Source: Eledone cirrhosa
Lineage: Eukaryota
Direction: 5' to 3'
Assembly: GCA_964016885.1 (NCBI GenBank)
Contig: OZ024751.1
Span: 19,468,001 to 19,532,000 of the forward strand
Length of the DNA stretch: 64,000 nucleotides
This document shows, piece by piece, positions 25,740-38,374 of the stretch; the stretch's first letter is position 1, and each line of letters starts with the position of its first letter. Position numbers and translations under genes: made by a program. Below the pieces are notes generated by a model, which had not been told where the DNA came from, searched no databases, and saw nothing but the letters and a program-made list of their open reading frames with translations.

Positions 25740-28700
25740 AGCACCACCACCTCCAATGCAACCATCATCACCACCATAACCACCACCACCACCTCCAATG
25801 CAACCATCATCACCACCATAACCACCACCACCACCTCCAATGCAACCATCATCACCACCATAACCACCACCACCACCTCCAATGCAACCATCATCACCAC
25901 CATAACCACCACCACCACCTCCAATGCAACCATCATCACCACCATAACCAACACCACCACCTCCAATGTAAACATCATCACCACCATAACCACCACCACC
26001 ACCTCCAATGCAACCATCATCACCACCATAACCAACACCACCACCTCCAATGCAACCATCATCACCACCATAACCACCACCACCACCTCCAATGCAACCA
26101 TCATCACCACCATAACCACCACCACCACCTCCAATGCAACCATCATCACCACCATAACCAACACCACCACCTCCAATGTAAACATCATCACCACCATAAC
26201 CACCACCACCACCTCCAATGCAACCATCATCACCACCATAACCAACACCACCACCTCCAATGCAACCATCATCACCACCATAACCACCACCACCACCTCC
26301 AATGCAACCATCATCACCACCATAACCACCACCACCACCTCCAATGCAACCATCATCACCACCATAACCAACACCACCACCTCCAATGTAAACATCATCA
26401 CCACCATAACCACCACCACCACCTCCAATGCAACCATCATCACCACCATAACCAACACCACCACCTCCAATGCAACCATCATCACCACCATAACCACCAC
26501 CACCACCTCCAATGCAACCATCATCACCACCATAACCAACACCACCACCTCCAATGCAACCATCATCACCACCATAACCACCACCACCACCTCCAATGCA
26601 ACCATCATCACCACCATAACCAACACCACCACCTCCAATGCAACCATCATCACCACCATAACCACCACCACCACCTCCAATGCAACCATCATCACCACCA
26701 TAACCAACACCACCACCTCCAATGCAACCATCATCACCACCATAACCACCACCACCACCTCCAATGTAAACATCATCACCACCATAACCACCACCACCAC
26801 CTCCAATGCAACCATCATCACCACCATAACCACCACCACCACCTCCAATGCAACCATCATCACCACCATAACCAACACCACCACCTCCAATGCAACCATC
26901 ATCACCACCATAACCACCACCACCACCTCCAATGCAACCATCATCACCACCATAACCACCACCACCACCTCCAATGCAACCATCATCACCACCATAACCA
27001 CCACCACCACCTCCAATGCAACCATCATCACCACCATAACCACCACCACCACCTCCAATGCAACCATCATCACCACCATAACCACCACCACCACCTCCAA
27101 TGCAACCATCATCACCACCATAACCAACACCACCACCTCCAATACAACCATCATCACCACCATAACCACCACCACCACCTCCAATGCAACCATCATCACC
27201 ACCATAACCACCACCACCACCTCCAATACAACCATCATCACCACCATAACCACCACCACCACCTCCAATGCAACCATCATCACCACCATAACCACCACCA
27301 CCACCTCCAATGCAACCATCATCACCACCATAACCACCACCACCACCTCCAATGCAACCATCATCACCACCATAACCACCACCACCACCTCCAATGCAAC
27401 CATCATCACCACCATAACCAACACCACCACCTCCAATGCAACCATCATCACCACCATAACCACCACCACCACCTCCAATGCAACCATCATCACCACCATA
27501 ACCACCACCACCACCTCCAATGCAACCATCATCACCACCATAACCACCACCACCACCTCCAATGCAACCATCATCACCACCATAACCAACACCACCACCT
27601 CCAATGCAACCATCATCACCACCATAACCACCACCACCACCTCCAATGCAACCATCATCACCACCATAACCACCACCACCACCTCCAATGCAACCATCAT
27701 CACCACCATAACCACCACCACCACCTCCAATGCAACCATCATCACCACCATAACCACCACCACCACCTCCAATGCAACCATCATCACCACCATAACCAAC
27801 ACCACCACCTCCAATGCAACCATCATCACCACCATAACCACCACCACCACCTCCAATGCAACCATCATCACCACCATAACCACCACCACCACCTCCAATG
27901 CAACCATCATCACCACCATAACCAACACCACCACCTCCAATGCAACCATCATCACCACCATAACCAACACCACCACCTCCAATGCAACCATCATCACCAC
28001 CATAACCACCACCACCACCTCCAATGTAAACATCATCACCACCATAACCACCACCACCACCTCCAATGCAACCATCATCACCACCATAACCACCACCACC
28101 ACCTCCAATGCAACCATCATCACCACCATAACCACCACCACCACCTCCAATGCAACCATCATCACCACCATAACCACCACCACCACCTCCAATGTAAACA
28201 TCATCACCACCATAACCACCACCACCACCTCCAATGCAACCATCATCACCACCATAACCACCACCATAACCAACACCACCACCTCCAATGCAACCATCAT
28301 CACCACCATAACCACCACCACCACCTCCAATGCAACCATCATCACCACCATAACCACCACCACCACCACCATAACCAACACCACCACCTCCAATGCAACC
28401 ATCATCACCACCATAACCACCACCACCACCACCATAACCAACACCACCACCTCCAATGCAACCATCATCACCACCATAACCACCACCACCACCTCCAATG
28501 CAACCATCATCACCACCATAACCACCACCACCACCTCCAATGCAACCATCATCACCACCATAACCACCACCACCACCTCCAATGCAACCATCATCACCAC
28601 CATAACCACCACCACCACCACCATAACCAACACCACCACCTCCAATGCAACCATCATCACCACCATAACCACCACCACCACCTCCAATGCAACCATCATC

Positions 28701-30820
28701 ACCACCATAACCACCACCACCACCTCCAATGCAACCATCATCACCACCATAACCACCACCACCACCTCCAATGCAACCATCATCACCACCATAACCACCA
28801 CCACCACCTCCAATGCAACCATCATCACCACCATAACCACCACCACCACCACCATAACCAACACCACCACCTCCAATGCAACCATCATCACCACCATAAC
28901 CACCACCACCACCTCCAATGCAACCATCATCACCACCATAACCACCACCACCACCTCCAATGCAACCATCATCACCACCATAACCAACACCACCACCTCC
29001 AATGCAACCATCATCACCACCATAACCACCACCACCACCACCATAACCACCACCACCACCTCCAATGCAACCATCATCACCACCATAACCAACACCACCA
29101 CCTCCAATGCAACCATCATCACCACCATAACCACCACCACCACCACCATAACCAACACCACCACCTCCAATGCAACCATCATCACCACCATAACCACCAC
29201 CACCACCACCATAACCAACACCACCACCTCCAATGCAACCATCATCACCACCATAACCACCACCACCACCACCATAACCAACACCACCACCTCCAATGCA
29301 ACCATCATCACCACCATAACCACCACCACCACCTCCAATGTAAACATCATCACCACCATAACCAACACCACCACCTCCAATGCAACCATCATCACCACCA
29401 TAACCACCACCACCACCACCATAACCAACACCACCACCTCCAATGCAACCATCATCACCACCATAACCACCACCACCACCACCATAACCAACACCACCAC
29501 CTCCAATGCAACCATCATCACCACCATAACCACCACCACCACCTCCAATGTAAACATCATCACCACCATAACCAACACCACCACCTCCAATGCAACCATC
29601 ATCACCACCATAACCACCACCACCACCACCATAACCAACACCACCACCTCCAATGCAACCATCATCACCACCATAACCACCACCACCACCACCATAACCA
29701 ACACCACCACCTCCAATGCAACCATCATCACCACCATAACCACCACCACCACCTCCAATGTAAACATCATCACCACCATAACCAACACCACCACCTCCAA
29801 TGCAACCATCATCACCACCATAACCACCACCACCACCACCATAACCAACACCACCACCTCCAATGCAACCATCATCACCACCATAACCACCACCACCACC
29901 ACCATAACCAACACCACCTCCAATGTAAACATCATCACCACCATAACCAACACCACCACCTCCAATGCAACCATCATCACCACCATAACCAACACCACCA
30001 CCTCCAATGCAACCATCATCACCACCATAACCACCACCACCACCACCATAACCAACACCACCACCTCCAATGCAACCATCATCACCACCATAACCACCAC
30101 CACCACCACCATAACCAACACCACCTCCAATGTAAACATCATCACCACCATAACCACCACCACCACCTCCAATGTAAACATCATCACCACCATAACCACC
30201 ACCACCACCACCATAACCAACACCACCACCTCCAATGCAACCATCATCACCACCATAACCAACACCACCACCTCCAATGCAACCATCATCACCACCATAA
30301 CCACCACCACCACCACCATAACCAACACCACCACCTCCAATGCAACCATCATCACCACCATAACCACCACCACCACCACCATAACCAACACCACCACCTC
30401 CAATGCAACCATCATCACCACCATAACCACCACCACCACCACCATAACCAACACCACCACCTCCAATGCAACCATCATCACCACCATAACCACCACCACC
30501 ACCTCCAATGCAACCATCATCACCACCATAACCACCACCACCACCACCATAACCACCACCACCACCTCCAATGCAACCATCATCACCACCATAACCACCA
30601 CCACCACCTCCAATGCAACCATCATCACCACCATAACCACCACCACCACCTCCAATGCAACCATCATCACCACCATAACCACCACCACCACCTCCAATGC
30701 AACCATCATCACCACCATAACCAACACCACCACCTCCAATGCAACCATCATCACCACCATAACCACCACCACCACCTCCAATGCAACCATCATCACCACC
30801 ATAACCACCACCATAACCAA
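25740..30820. repeat. 5.1-kb homogeneous 42-bp minisatellite (63-bp variant in the right half)
   Basis: Unit cctccaatgcaaccatcatcaccaccataaccaccaccacca. Variants gca/gta and acc/aac. A +21-bp insert appears from about 28350 onward. Confidence 0.95.
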
Positions 30821-31649: not shown

Positions 31650-32535
31650 CTATTTATTTACCACCAGGGCGTCAAAGAGTGGGACAAGTACAAGGGGGGG
31701 GGGTACATAAAAAGGCGTCCTCAATAAGGAGGAGGCAATAACAAAATATAAAAATATATAATATAACAAAAATAAATTGAATAACAAAATCCTCAATAGG
31801 GAGGAGGCGCCTTGGGGGGGGGGGGGGTCGCACACACACCCGAAAAAGTGCGCAACCCTTCTCCACGGGAGCACAGAGAGAGGGTGCTCCCTTGATCTTT
31901 CATCTTTCTCACCTACAGTCTGATGTAGAGTGAAGGCCCATTCACACGGGCCATTCTCGCCACTTTCATCCATCTTTCATAAAAACGGCTGGGGTGCAGC
32001 ACCTCTCTCTCCACCCTGATCCTTCTTCCGAAATGATATCGGAAGAAACGGACCAGTTGTTGGCCAGAGAGAAAGGTGTCTGACCTCAGTTCTTTCAGAC
32101 GCGTCCACCATACAACCTCTTTCGCCATGGCTATTACGCACAGAAACACCGCCTCTCCTTCGTTTTTGAAGAGGGGAGGCGGCTTGATCGTTACAATAGA
32201 CTCGGTGGTCAACCGGATCGGTCCCACCCGTGACAGCAGTCGTTCGACATAGCCCCACAGATCGGCAATGCCCGAGCAACGGTTTCCTCGTCGCACACGC
32301 ATCTGGGACAGATCTTTTTTGAGGGGTCCCTTGTCTGTAGAGCCTTTCTCGAACGGGCAGAGCCCCTCGGTAGCACTGCCAGGCCAGGGACCTCTGGAAG
32401 TTATCCATGGGTCCCGGGCTGAATGTCCTACCGAACAGGTTGGCCAGTTCCTCTTCCTCCATGCCTAGGGCTTCTCCGAGGGCGTCGTCGCACCTGCTAA
32501 CCACCAGCCCTCTATAGAATGACGAGTGTACCCAG
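31650..32535 (-). mobile_element. 3' fragment of a Tx1/L1-clade non-LTR retrotransposon (zf-RVT region plus 3' UTR), frameshifted
   Basis: DNFQRSLAWQCYRGALPVRERLYRQG, then a frameshift to CPRC...LWGYVERLL...AKEVVWWTR...RFFRYH. Ends in taaataaata and is cut at its 5' side by a SINE. Confidence 0.75.
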
Positions 32536-32685
32536 TACATTACTGGTACTTTATTTTATCGACCCCCGTAAGGATGAAAGGCAAAGTTAACCTCGGCGAG
32601 ATTTGAACTCAGATCAAAAAGGGACGTAACTATGCTTCAAAGCATGGCGTCCGACTCTCTACCGATACTGCCAATCCACCGCCCT
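32530..32685 (-). mobile_element. tRNA-derived SINE
   Basis: Matches the SINE consensus. Confidence 0.8.
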
Positions 32686-32748
32686 TATATATATATTATA
32701 TATTATTCAAAATATTAACAAATGAAAAATATTCTCAATCAAAATATA

Positions 32749-32814
32749 TACTTTATTATATATATTTCAGAGGTACTGTGTTGTTTTTTCAGTACGTCCT
32801 CGTCAGATAAAATA
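32749..32814 (-). ncRNA. Minimal type I hammerhead motif (AUA site)
   Basis: Minus strand: tattttat-CTGACGA-gga c gtactg...cagtac c tct-GAAA TATATA TA-ataaagta. Confidence 0.75.
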
Positions 32815-32943
32815 CATGAATTGATGTACGACATCCCTCAACTGTCTTGATAGTTCAATTCCAGTACTACCAATACTGGAATTGAACCATCAAGACCGTT
32901 GAGGTATGTCATACATCAATTCATGTATTTATTCCGAATAATA

Positions 32944-32975
<32 letters not shown>

Positions 32976-33106
32976 CATATATATATATATGTAAAAGTTC
33001 TATTTAAATTGTTGGAATACAACAAGCAAATATTTTTGTAACCGATATAAAGCACTCAACAAATATTTGGAGTAAAAATACGATATTAACAAATGGAAAC
33101 TATATT

Positions 33107-33171
33107 TATTTCATTATACATATTTCGAGGACACCAAGTTAAATTATGGTGTGCTTTCATCAGATAAAATA
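33107..33171 (-). ncRNA. Minimal type I hammerhead motif (family B, AUA site) within element 32990-33245
   Basis: Minus strand: tattttat-CTGATGA-aag c acacca...tggtgt c ctc-GAAA TATGTA TA-atgaaata. The first stem II pair is an A-C mismatch. Confidence 0.7.
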
Positions 33172-33342
33172 TAATATAGAGCCGTTTTATAAATAAATAT
33201 TGACATACCCAAAGAATGCAACCATTACTGTTGGAAGCTCCCGGATATATATATACATATACCCTTCTACTACATATCTATACATTTTCGTAGATATCTA
33301 TCTATGCCTATTATCTGTCGATACAGTTACGCAGCCAGCAAC

Positions 33343-33673: not shown

Positions 33674-33844
33674 CTTTTTTCCTTTTTTTATTCGGCTGTC
33701 CTCTCAATTGACATAAAAAAACAACACTACACTTCCGGTACGTTGATGATGATGATGATGATACGTCTTTTTTATAAAGCACGATTGTCACCACTACGAC
33801 CACGATAACAACAACAACAATATAAATAACCATTGGGGGATGTA

Positions 33845-34765
33845 ATTATGGTTTCTACTTATGGCGCAAGGCCAGCAATTATCCCAGTTCATTACTGGTA
33901 CTTTATTTTATCAACCCGATAAAGTTACCCTCGGCGGGATGTGAACTCAGACAGTAAAGGGACGTAACTCTATACTGGAAAGCATGGCGTCCGACCCTCT
34001 ACCGATACTGCCAATCCATTCGGCACAAGTCCAGTAATGTTTTTGGAAGGGGGATGAAAATCGATTAAAGTGACTCCAGTGCATTACTGGTGATTTATTT
34101 TATCGATCCTCTTAAGGAGCGACGGTTGCTTCTGACAGGACTCGCTGGAATAAGTGGGCGAAGAAGAAGACCCTGTAAGGAAGACAGGCAAAGCTAACCA
34201 CGGCGGGATTTGAACTCAGAATGTAAAGGGACATAACTATGCCGCAAACCATTTTGTTCGATGCTCCACCGATACTGCCAATCCACAATCTAAACTATAA
34301 TAAAGTAAGGAGTGCGGGACTGCGTACGGTTTATTTCTTTTAATCCAGTTAGTAAAATAAGTTGGATTACTTTGAATAAATAATTAATGAATATTACATA
34401 ATTTATCTACTAAATTTCGTAGCTGTTGATTAAATATATTTTATTGCTTATTTAAAGATTCACTTCTTTAAAATGTTCAAAAGTCAACACTTCCGGTTAG
34501 CGATCGCTTAAATAAATATTCATATATTTCCGTCACTAATTTTCTCCTAATGCAGTTTATATATAATATCGTCTTTTTTTAATGTATCATGGATTACGTT
34601 ACTGATTACGTAAGACAGTGTAACACAGTTCTGCTAGTTATAATAATAAGGGTTACTGATTTAGGCACATGGCCAACAATTTAGGGACAGGGGAAAGTCG
34701 ATTAAATCGACACCAGTCCGTTACTGGTACTTTGTTTTATCGACCCCCGTAACGATTAAAGGCAT
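33845..34765 (-). mobile_element. tRNA-derived SINE copies (about 33845-34020, 34020-34290, 34655-34765)
   Basis: Match the SINE consensus, with some copies degenerate. Confidence 0.7.
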
Positions 34766-34839
34766 AGATAGGGGACGTTACAAAAGTGATTGAGGTACTT
34801 AGCGATAAGTTGTCACTGGGGTGAGATAGAGTTGCGGTG

Positions 34840-38136: not shown

Positions 38137-38374
38137 TTGAAAGACTTGTAAATCCAATGTAGCAATGTGGTTCAACATACGAAGTCCTGCAGTTGTTACT
38201 GCTAATGTATGTGCTGGTAACACTGCAGGGGCTATATCACCACGACCTTGTACCCCAGAGTGTAATAACATTCCATATAACAGTGACACAATTCCAACCA
38301 GTTCGGTCACTTGGAATGTAGCTAACAGTTGAGTTGGGTCATCAGTTTTCTTACTTCCGAAAACATTACTGTTT
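38137..38374 (-). CDS. SCAPER: SCAPER internal exon, 238 nt, phase 2/0
   Basis: Acceptor ttctcattttctag|A and donor CAA|gtaagt. Translation NSNVFGSKKTDDPTQLLATFQVTELVGIVSLLYGMLLHSG...TLAVTTAGLRMLNHIATLDLQVFQ matches SCAPER as recalled (human DPTGLTAALQATDLAGVLHMLYCVLFHG...SLRFFNSFAALHLPAFQ). CG+A joins the upstream exon as Arg. Confidence 0.92.

What the first reader, a model, noticed from the sequence alone, without database searches (positions are those of the whole stretch)
32749..33171. Adjacent same-strand hammerhead pair able to form a double hammerhead and excise a ~358-nt RNA
Two minus-strand motifs from different subfamilies share stem I 5' strand UAUUUUAU. Their stem III segments AUAUGUAU and AUAUAUAU cross-pair over 8 bp with one G-U, and each 5' stem I strand can pair with the other's 3' strand (AUAAAGUA, AUGAAAUA). 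This is the geometry needed for dimeric cleavage. Predicted cuts at 33115/33114 and 32757/32756 would release about 358 nt containing a ~125-nt hairpin, in the size range of retrozyme monomers and circRNAs. Both motifs are on the SCAPER sense strand, so the host pre-mRNA could supply the transcript (inference).
Basis: partly seen in the sequence, partly recalled or inferred. Interest (0 to 1): 0.75.

Follow-up and report, generated by a model that had tools for sequence, protein, structure and literature searches.

The report
Two Penelope transposon stubs, chance neighbours
Both self-cutting-RNA (hammerhead) motifs are really there, but they are leftover ends of two different jumping-gene families in a genome with over 37,000 such motifs, so the pair is likely an accident of both landing in the same AT repeat, and it is predicted to fold poorly into a working double ribozyme.

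Summary
Observation confirmed; interpretation mostly not. Both minus-strand type I hammerhead motifs, the 8-bp cross-pairings, the 358-nt spacing and the position in a ~57-kb SCAPER intron (sense strand) check out. But each motif lies in a solo terminal repeat (pLTR) of a different Hydra-clade Penelope-like retrotransposon family; I found the RT/GIY-YIG bodies of both. The genome has 37,679 exact matches to the motif (control 0), all with the same stem III, so the cross-pairing is generic. Same-strand pairs at this spacing occur 150 times, convergent pairs (which cannot dimerise in cis) 189 times in an equal-width bin: clustering in (TA)n tails, blind to orientation. The A/B junction is unique in the genome, and no reinserted copy of the predicted circle junction was found. 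The hairpin is the usual inverted 5' copy of element B and sequesters B's stem I and CUGA; copy A carries a private A-C mismatch and a 14-nt deletion. The double fold costs about +24 kcal/mol (model without tertiary contacts). No RNA data were available, so weak cleavage is not excluded. The scan noted Hydra stubs before on other DNA of this genome.

The parts
32992..33247 (-). Element A: solo pLTR of Hydra-type Penelope-like family A, (TA)n on both sides
   Evidence: >=4359 first-look candidates, 40 scored, 86-95% identical; same sequence flanks an RT/GIY-YIG ORF in L078
33107..33171 (-). Hammerhead motif A (type I, palindromic UAUGUA); private U11.1->C at 33127 gives A-C; 14-nt deletion just 3' removes the distal stem I strand
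   Evidence: C in 0 of 19 other copies; family letter in 96-97% of summed contig depth in two runs; distal stem in the consensus fold of 17 other copies
32941..32990 (.). (TA)n tract shared by the 3' end of A and the 3' end of the inverted B arm: the likely common target
   Evidence: TRF; (TA)4+ follows 19 of 19 other A copies and 20 of 24 other B copies
32867..32945 (+). Inverted head-to-head copy of element B with an internal ~97-nt deletion that removed its hammerhead; forms the long hairpin with the forward copy
   Evidence: alignment to B copies; head-to-head partners in 11 of 24 other B and 8 of 19 other A copies
32686..32866 (-). Element B: solo, 3'-shortened pLTR of Hydra-type family B with (TA)n tail
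   Evidence: >=1741 candidates, 40 scored, 89-93% identical; lies 3' of GIY-YIG-ending ORFs in L081, L092, L095 etc.
32749..32814 (-). Hammerhead motif B (type I, palindromic UAUAUA, G-U at base of stem II as in many family members); its 5' stem I strand and CUGA are sequestered by the hairpin
38137..38374 (-). SCAPER exon upstream of the host intron (aa ~1289-1368 of P0001)
   Evidence: next exon C11:19448765-19448914

Best explanation
The two hammerhead motifs are the terminal repeats (pLTRs) of two different Hydra-type Penelope-like retrotransposon families, which likely inserted independently into one (TA)n microsatellite in a SCAPER intron and are predicted to be mostly inactive here. Shown: each motif sits in a high-copy dispersed element whose longer copies carry an RT plus C-terminal GIY-YIG ORF; both end in (TA)n; B carries the inverted 5' copy typical of these elements; the junction is unique. 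Inferred: the element's endonuclease targets (TA)n, every insertion leaves a new (TA)n tail, so copies pile up next to each other in either orientation; all families keep the same palindromic stem III and U-rich stem I, so any two neighbours can be drawn as a double hammerhead. Predicted: in the SCAPER pre-mRNA the 64-bp hairpin captures B's stem I strand and CUGA, and A's A-C mismatch and deletion weaken the core that would cut site B, so the 358-nt RNA would be released rarely if at all.
For: A and B are found separately: 0 of 19 other A loci carry B at this spacing and 0 of 24 other B loci carry A. Full-length A element L078: inverted copy, A, 579-aa ORF starting 47 nt after A, GIY-YIG, 3' UTR, A, (TA)n; B bodies 43% identical in protein to A. 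Hydra marks of PMC8557442 section 11: RWR, DKT, CxCx5C, CxxC/CxH. 37,679 motif matches. 150 same-strand pairs in a 31-nt bin against 7.3 expected for uniform placement, and 189 convergent pairs in a 31-nt bin. 30 of the 150 fetched: all 30 have a TA run between the motifs (28 of 10 nt or more); of 22 with both stems II parsed none are identical and 17 are under 75% alike. Junction unique; 0 copies of the predicted B-to-A circle junction with B's loop. Double fold +23.7 kcal/mol over the ensemble, +15.6 without the inverted arm.
Against: The geometry is formally complete (8/8/8 pairs) and both catalytic cores are intact; B differs from its family majority at only 2 substitutions and one 2-nt gap, none in the ribozyme. 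The folding model ignores tertiary contacts, Mg2+ and proteins, and I ran no known active dimer as a positive control, so +24 kcal/mol cannot be read as a rate. The convergent-pair control uses another spacing (200-230 nt) and other half-patterns, and the uniform expectation is too low because half-patterns are commoner than the full one. In the first 100 listed motifs, pairs within 600 nt were 3 same-strand, 1 convergent, 8 divergent, too few to settle orientation. Clade placement rests on motifs and a by-eye look at Hydra-1_Obim, not on a tree.
Confidence: 0.85

Rival explanations
1. Same accidental origin, but the pair works weakly: during SCAPER transcription a small fraction folds (perhaps helped by a chaperone or the element's own protein) into the double hammerhead and releases a 358-nt linear or circular RNA.
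For: Complete nested geometry and intact cores; host transcription on the right strand; dimeric constructs of minimal PLE hammerheads cleave at low level in vitro (PMC4209133); the Anolis PLE hammerhead is described as protein-assisted (PMC11167929 passage); the circle would be 75% paired, 26.5% GC.
Against: Hairpin sequesters B's 5' strand and CUGA; A-C mismatch and deletion private to this copy; no reinserted circle junction; in Anolis no RNA-seq reads ended at the PLE cut site.
Confidence: 0.11
2. The 358-nt stretch is a non-LTR retrozyme monomer that amplifies through a circular RNA, or a selected regulator of SCAPER.
For: Size within 170-400 nt and low GC, as for animal retrozymes (PMC7229834 passages); retrozymes are reported to derive from PLE pLTRs (bioRxiv 10.64898/2026.07.22.740005).
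Against: Not a tandem of one unit; the two flanks belong to different families; junction single-copy; decay in A; 150 comparable pairs in this one spacing bin.
Confidence: 0.03

Closest known systems
Hydra clade of Penelope-like elements (Craig et al. 2021, PMC8557442; includes Hydra-1_Obim from Octopus bimaculoides)
   Same: C-terminal GIY-YIG, DKT, CxCX5C linker, CxxC and CxH around E and N, hammerhead in the pLTR, (TA)n insertion, inverted 5' copies
   Different: Different families: the Hydra-1_Obim hammerhead listed in supplement File S2 has other stems; RWR instead of RWK; unit about 3.9 kb with a long 3' UTR against 'generally <3 kb'; here only solo pLTR stubs
[quoted passage not shown]
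   Same: Type I, long helix II, palindromic helix III, mostly single dispersed motifs, dimer requirement, low activity; close dual motifs already reported (on opposite strands)
   Different: G10.1-C11.1 not kept (A-U in family A, A-C in this copy, G-U or G-C in B); no extra base between 9 and 10.1; C-C mismatch at step 4 of stem II; here the neighbours are same-strand and of two families
Non-LTR retrozymes (Cervera and de la Pena 2020, PMC7229834; Li et al. 2026, bioRxiv 10.64898/2026.07.22.740005)
   Same: Type I hammerheads a few hundred nt apart on one strand, low GC, size range
   Different: Retrozymes are tandem copies of one unit; this is a single-copy chimera of two families with no sign of amplification

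Membership tests
Minimal type I hammerhead of PLEs | CUGANGA and GAAA boxes with NUH cleavage triplet | tested here: met
   (AUA triplets)
Minimal type I hammerhead of PLEs | Long helix II and palindromic helix III | tested here: met
   9-step stem II with C-C mismatch; UAUGUA / UAUAUA
Minimal type I hammerhead of PLEs | G10.1-C11.1 pair and extra base between 9 and 10.1 | tested here: not met
   A-C here (family A-U), G-U in B; no unpaired base in the family folds
Minimal type I hammerhead of PLEs | Located in the pLTR of an RT/GIY-YIG element | tested here: met
   L078 for A; L081, L092, L095 for B (3' copy only; a B copy before an ORF start was not seen)
Minimal type I hammerhead of PLEs | Self-cleavage as dimer | not testable with these tools
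   folding only
Hydra clade PLE | DKT in place of DKG; RWK motif | tested here: met
   DKT at aa 118, RWR at aa 37 of the A ORF (K to R); N-terminus of B not examined
Hydra clade PLE | CxCX5C linker; CxxC and CxH around E and N; no CCHH | tested here: met
   CNCRNKSNC / CNCRKKSEC; CDLCIEE / CNLCNLE; CRH / CHH; one Cys in the GIY-YIG core by eye
Hydra clade PLE | Insertion into (TA)n | tested here: met
   19 of 19 A and 20 of 24 B copies
Hydra clade PLE | Generally under 3 kb | tested here: not met
   pLTR-to-pLTR about 3.9 kb in L078; the paper says 'generally'
Hydra clade PLE | Placement in the Hydra clade on an RT tree | not tested
   reference proteins seen only as supplement text
Non-LTR retrozyme | Tandem repeats of one unit, a hammerhead in each | tested here: not met
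   two families, stem II 55% and upstream 110 nt 62% alike
Non-LTR retrozyme | Unit present in many genomic copies | tested here: not met
   junction 1 match; circle junction with B's loop 0
Non-LTR retrozyme | Monomer 170-400 nt, low GC | tested here: met
   358 nt, GC 0.265
Non-LTR retrozyme | Expressed as linear and circular RNA | not testable with these tools
   no RNA holder listed

The most novel reading that the evidence does not exclude
(TA)n-targeting Hydra elements that share one stem III palindrome create roughly a thousand accidental cross-family hammerhead pairs in this genome; those in host introns act as double hammerheads, cut pre-mRNA and release chimeric circles, a nursery for new retrozymes and hybrid pLTRs. 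This locus would be one, and the two hybrid pLTRs that switch family right at the cut site (L135, L136) would be its products elsewhere.
Probability: 0.08. Interest if true: 0.65.

Novelty: new member of a known kind. Interest (0 to 1): 0.2.

Why it matters
As it stands it is ordinary: two more stubs of a known retrotransposon clade. It is a useful caution that in this genome close, cross-compatible hammerhead pairs arise by insertion bias alone. If cross-family pairs did cleave inside host pre-mRNA, it would give a concrete route from Penelope pLTRs to new retrozymes and a burden on intron-rich octopus genes; better candidates than this locus exist (7 of 20 other pairs have a lower folding penalty, lowest L109, L126, L119, L112).

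Tried and rejected
Rfam: no family at gathering score in the window; at E<=10 only hairpin-type miRNA models below cut-off, no hammerhead. SCAPER_N family search of the genome rang nowhere and was uninformative. Pfam gave no significant hit on the SCAPER exons or the PLE ORFs; the closest full-length homologues are mostly unnamed, two cephalopod ones are labelled 'GATA zinc finger domain-containing protein 14-like'. Expression: no RNA holder listed; six guessed-RNA contig sets laid nothing; this says nothing for or against expression. Lunse et al. 2017 (dimer cleavage of PLE hammerheads) is not held; only its title was seen in a reference list. Considered and rejected: hairpin as retrozyme cargo or miRNA (it is an inverted copy of B); family-specific pairing code (stem III is shared by all 37,679 pattern matches by construction); the RT fragments 3.3 kb upstream of B in L049 as B's partner (different RT type; B's own body found).

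Full report
1. Observation. Both motifs are present on the minus strand as described. Motif A: stem I 5' strand 33171-33164, CUGAUGA 33163-33157, stem II to 33127, GAAA, UAUGUA, predicted cut 33115/33114, 3' strand to 33107. Motif B: 32814-32807, CUGACGA 32806-32800, stem II to 32769, GAAA, UAUAUA, cut 32757/32756, 3' strand to 32749. The three cross helices of a cis double hammerhead pair 8 of 8 each, with one G-U each, in a nested arrangement, and the piece between the cuts is 358 nt. In that fold core A would cut site B and core B would cut site A (from the established double-hammerhead geometry, described in PMC4209133). The hairpin has 64-nt arms, 89% complementary. The exon at 38374-38137 is SCAPER (93% to an Octopus vulgaris protein); the next exon lies at C11:19448914, so the pair is about 5 kb into a 57-kb intron on the sense strand. 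A loose scan finds 6 such motifs in the window, 4 on the SCAPER strand.

2. Two separate elements. A genome search with 32700-33250 returned, besides the window itself, copies of the upstream ~310 nt only (4359 candidates, 40 scored). A search with 32690-32875 returned a second family (1741 candidates, 40 scored). Of the loci fetched, 0 of 19 other A loci carry B at this spacing and 0 of 24 other B loci carry A. Both end in (TA)n: 19 of 19 A and 20 of 24 B copies. Head-to-head inverted partners occur in 8 of 19 A and 11 of 24 B copies. The inverted arm here is such a partner: it aligns to B's 5' end, skips about 97 nt including the hammerhead at a TATT microhomology, and resumes in B's 3' end and tail.

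3. The parent elements. Walking upstream from longer copies led to coding bodies. L078 holds a whole A element: inverted partial copy, A, an ORF starting 47 nt after the end of the A match (579 aa to a break, then the GIY-YIG part), a long 3' UTR, A again and (TA)n. B lies 3' of related GIY-YIG-ending ORFs, 43% identical to A's over 267 aa. The proteins show RWR, DKT, CxCx5C, CxxC before E and CxH after N, and one Cys in the GIY-YIG core (last by eye). These are the marks of the Hydra clade in Craig et al. 2021 (PMC8557442; section 11 read whole; passages), which also reports hammerheads, (TA)n insertion and inverted 5' copies; its supplement lists Hydra-1_Obim from Octopus bimaculoides, a different family with a different hammerhead (rows and passages). 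I built no tree. So A and B are solo pLTRs of two Hydra-type families.

4. Is the pair special? A pattern for the motif has 37,679 exact matches in the 3.0-Gb genome, 0 for the reversed control. By construction all carry stem III ATATRTAT, so any two cross-pair over 8 bp. Same-strand pairs with a gap of 285-315 nt occur 150 times, against 7.3 for uniform placement (an underestimate, as half-patterns are commoner). Convergent pairs, which one transcript cannot join into a double hammerhead, occur 189 times in a 31-nt bin at 200-230 nt (other spacing and half-patterns, so a rough control). I fetched the first 30 of the 150: all have a TA run between the motifs (28 of at least 10 nt); both stems II were parsed in 22, none identical, 17 under 75% alike. 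20 of the 30 could be folded (10 dropped because two full motifs were not parsed): 12 have complete 8/8/8 cross-pairing and 7 have a lower folding penalty than this locus. Among the first 100 motifs listed, pairs within 600 nt were 3 same-strand, 1 convergent and 8 divergent; 3 per 100 would mean roughly a thousand same-strand pairs genome-wide (rough extrapolation). The A-tail/inverted-B junction has one match, this locus. A pattern for the junction that a ligated and reinserted circle would leave found 2 places, neither with B's stem II loop.

5. Is this pair fit to cleave? Copy A has C at 11.1 where 19 of 19 other copies have U; two public runs of unrecorded kind read the family letter in 96% and 97% of summed contig depth. 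It also lacks 14 nt that supply the distal stem I strand in the family fold. Copy B is close to its family (2 substitutions, one 2-nt gap, none in the ribozyme), but the hairpin pairs 32814-32803, that is stem I 5' and CUGA, with probability 0.79-1.0 at 10 of 12 positions; all three cross helices have probability 0.0. Forcing the double fold costs +23.7 kcal/mol, or +15.6 without the inverted arm. Against over-reading this: the model lacks tertiary contacts, Mg2+ and proteins, every pair tested had a positive penalty (7.9-184.7), and no known active dimer was run as control. Published context: minimal PLE hammerheads show no monomer activity and low dimer activity in vitro (PMC4209133, parts 1-2 of 4 read); in the Anolis Poseidon element cleavage was not needed for insertion in vitro and no RNA-seq ends were found at the cut site (PMC11167929 passages). 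Expression could not be tested.

6. Mechanism. Most likely (0.85): independent (TA)n-targeted insertions of A and of a B palindrome into one microsatellite, order unknown, followed by decay (shown: separate families, tails, inverted copy, private changes; inferred: targeting by the element's endonuclease; predicted: little or no cleavage). Rivals: weak accidental cleavage from the SCAPER pre-mRNA (0.11); a true retrozyme unit or selected regulator (0.03). Retrozymes are tandem copies of one unit (PMC7229834 passages; bioRxiv 10.64898/2026.07.22.740005, part 1 of 5 and passages), which this is not.

7. Novelty. New members of a known kind. A search for hammerhead + Penelope + octopus listed 4 papers, of which only Craig et al. 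bears on it; I did not find these two families described, but Repbase, Dfam and subscription papers were not searched, and Lunse et al. 2017 could not be read (title only). Earlier notes of this scan reached the Hydra reading on other DNA of this and other genomes; my reading was fixed before I looked. The boldest reading left open (0.08) is that accidental cross-family pairs in introns do cleave and seed hybrid pLTRs or new retrozymes; two hybrid motifs that switch family inside the shared 14-nt block around the cut site exist, but deletion between neighbours or template switching explains them equally well. Interest 0.2.

Noticed in passing
L135:1472-1534 and L136:1473-1534 (G000:C5:95180886, C27:21268027): Hybrid pLTRs: 5' half and stem II of a B-related family joined to the 3' half of an A-type family, with the switch inside the shared GAAATATGTATAAT block that spans the cut site; 2 matches genome-wide for this pattern.
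   Followed up: partly
window 32803-32937: A 64-bp, 89% complementary duplex on the SCAPER pre-mRNA; such inverted PLE insertions are common (11 of 24 B copies) and could supply double-stranded RNA for A-to-I editing or small RNAs (inference; high editing in cephalopods is recalled, from no call).
   Followed up: no
window 711 (-) and 846 (+); 21632 (-); 23720 (+): Four more motifs of related families in the same intron, including a head-to-head identical pair with stem III UGCGCA.
   Followed up: no
both motifs, step 4 of stem II: A C-C mismatch at the same step in families A and B, whose surrounding pairs differ.
   Followed up: partly
window 32531-32678 and 33840-34286, 34713-34770: Several copies of another dispersed short repeat (SINE-like) next to the locus.
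   Followed up: no
window 31916-32464 (-): 183-aa frame resembling the 3' end of a non-LTR retrotransposon, also in L004, L048, L076; no Pfam hit.
   Followed up: no
P0073, P0110: Cephalopod proteins named 'GATA zinc finger domain-containing protein 14-like' are homologues of the PLE ORF and look mis-annotated.
   Followed up: no
L083, L084, L087-L090, L101 (G000:C3:89.4-90.3 Mb): Seven B-family bodies clustered within about 0.9 Mb, all with the pLTR match stopping at the same point (position 83), likely a segmental array.
   Followed up: no
window 25742-30549: 4.8-kb tandem array of a 42-nt unit, 114 copies, in the same intron.
   Followed up: no
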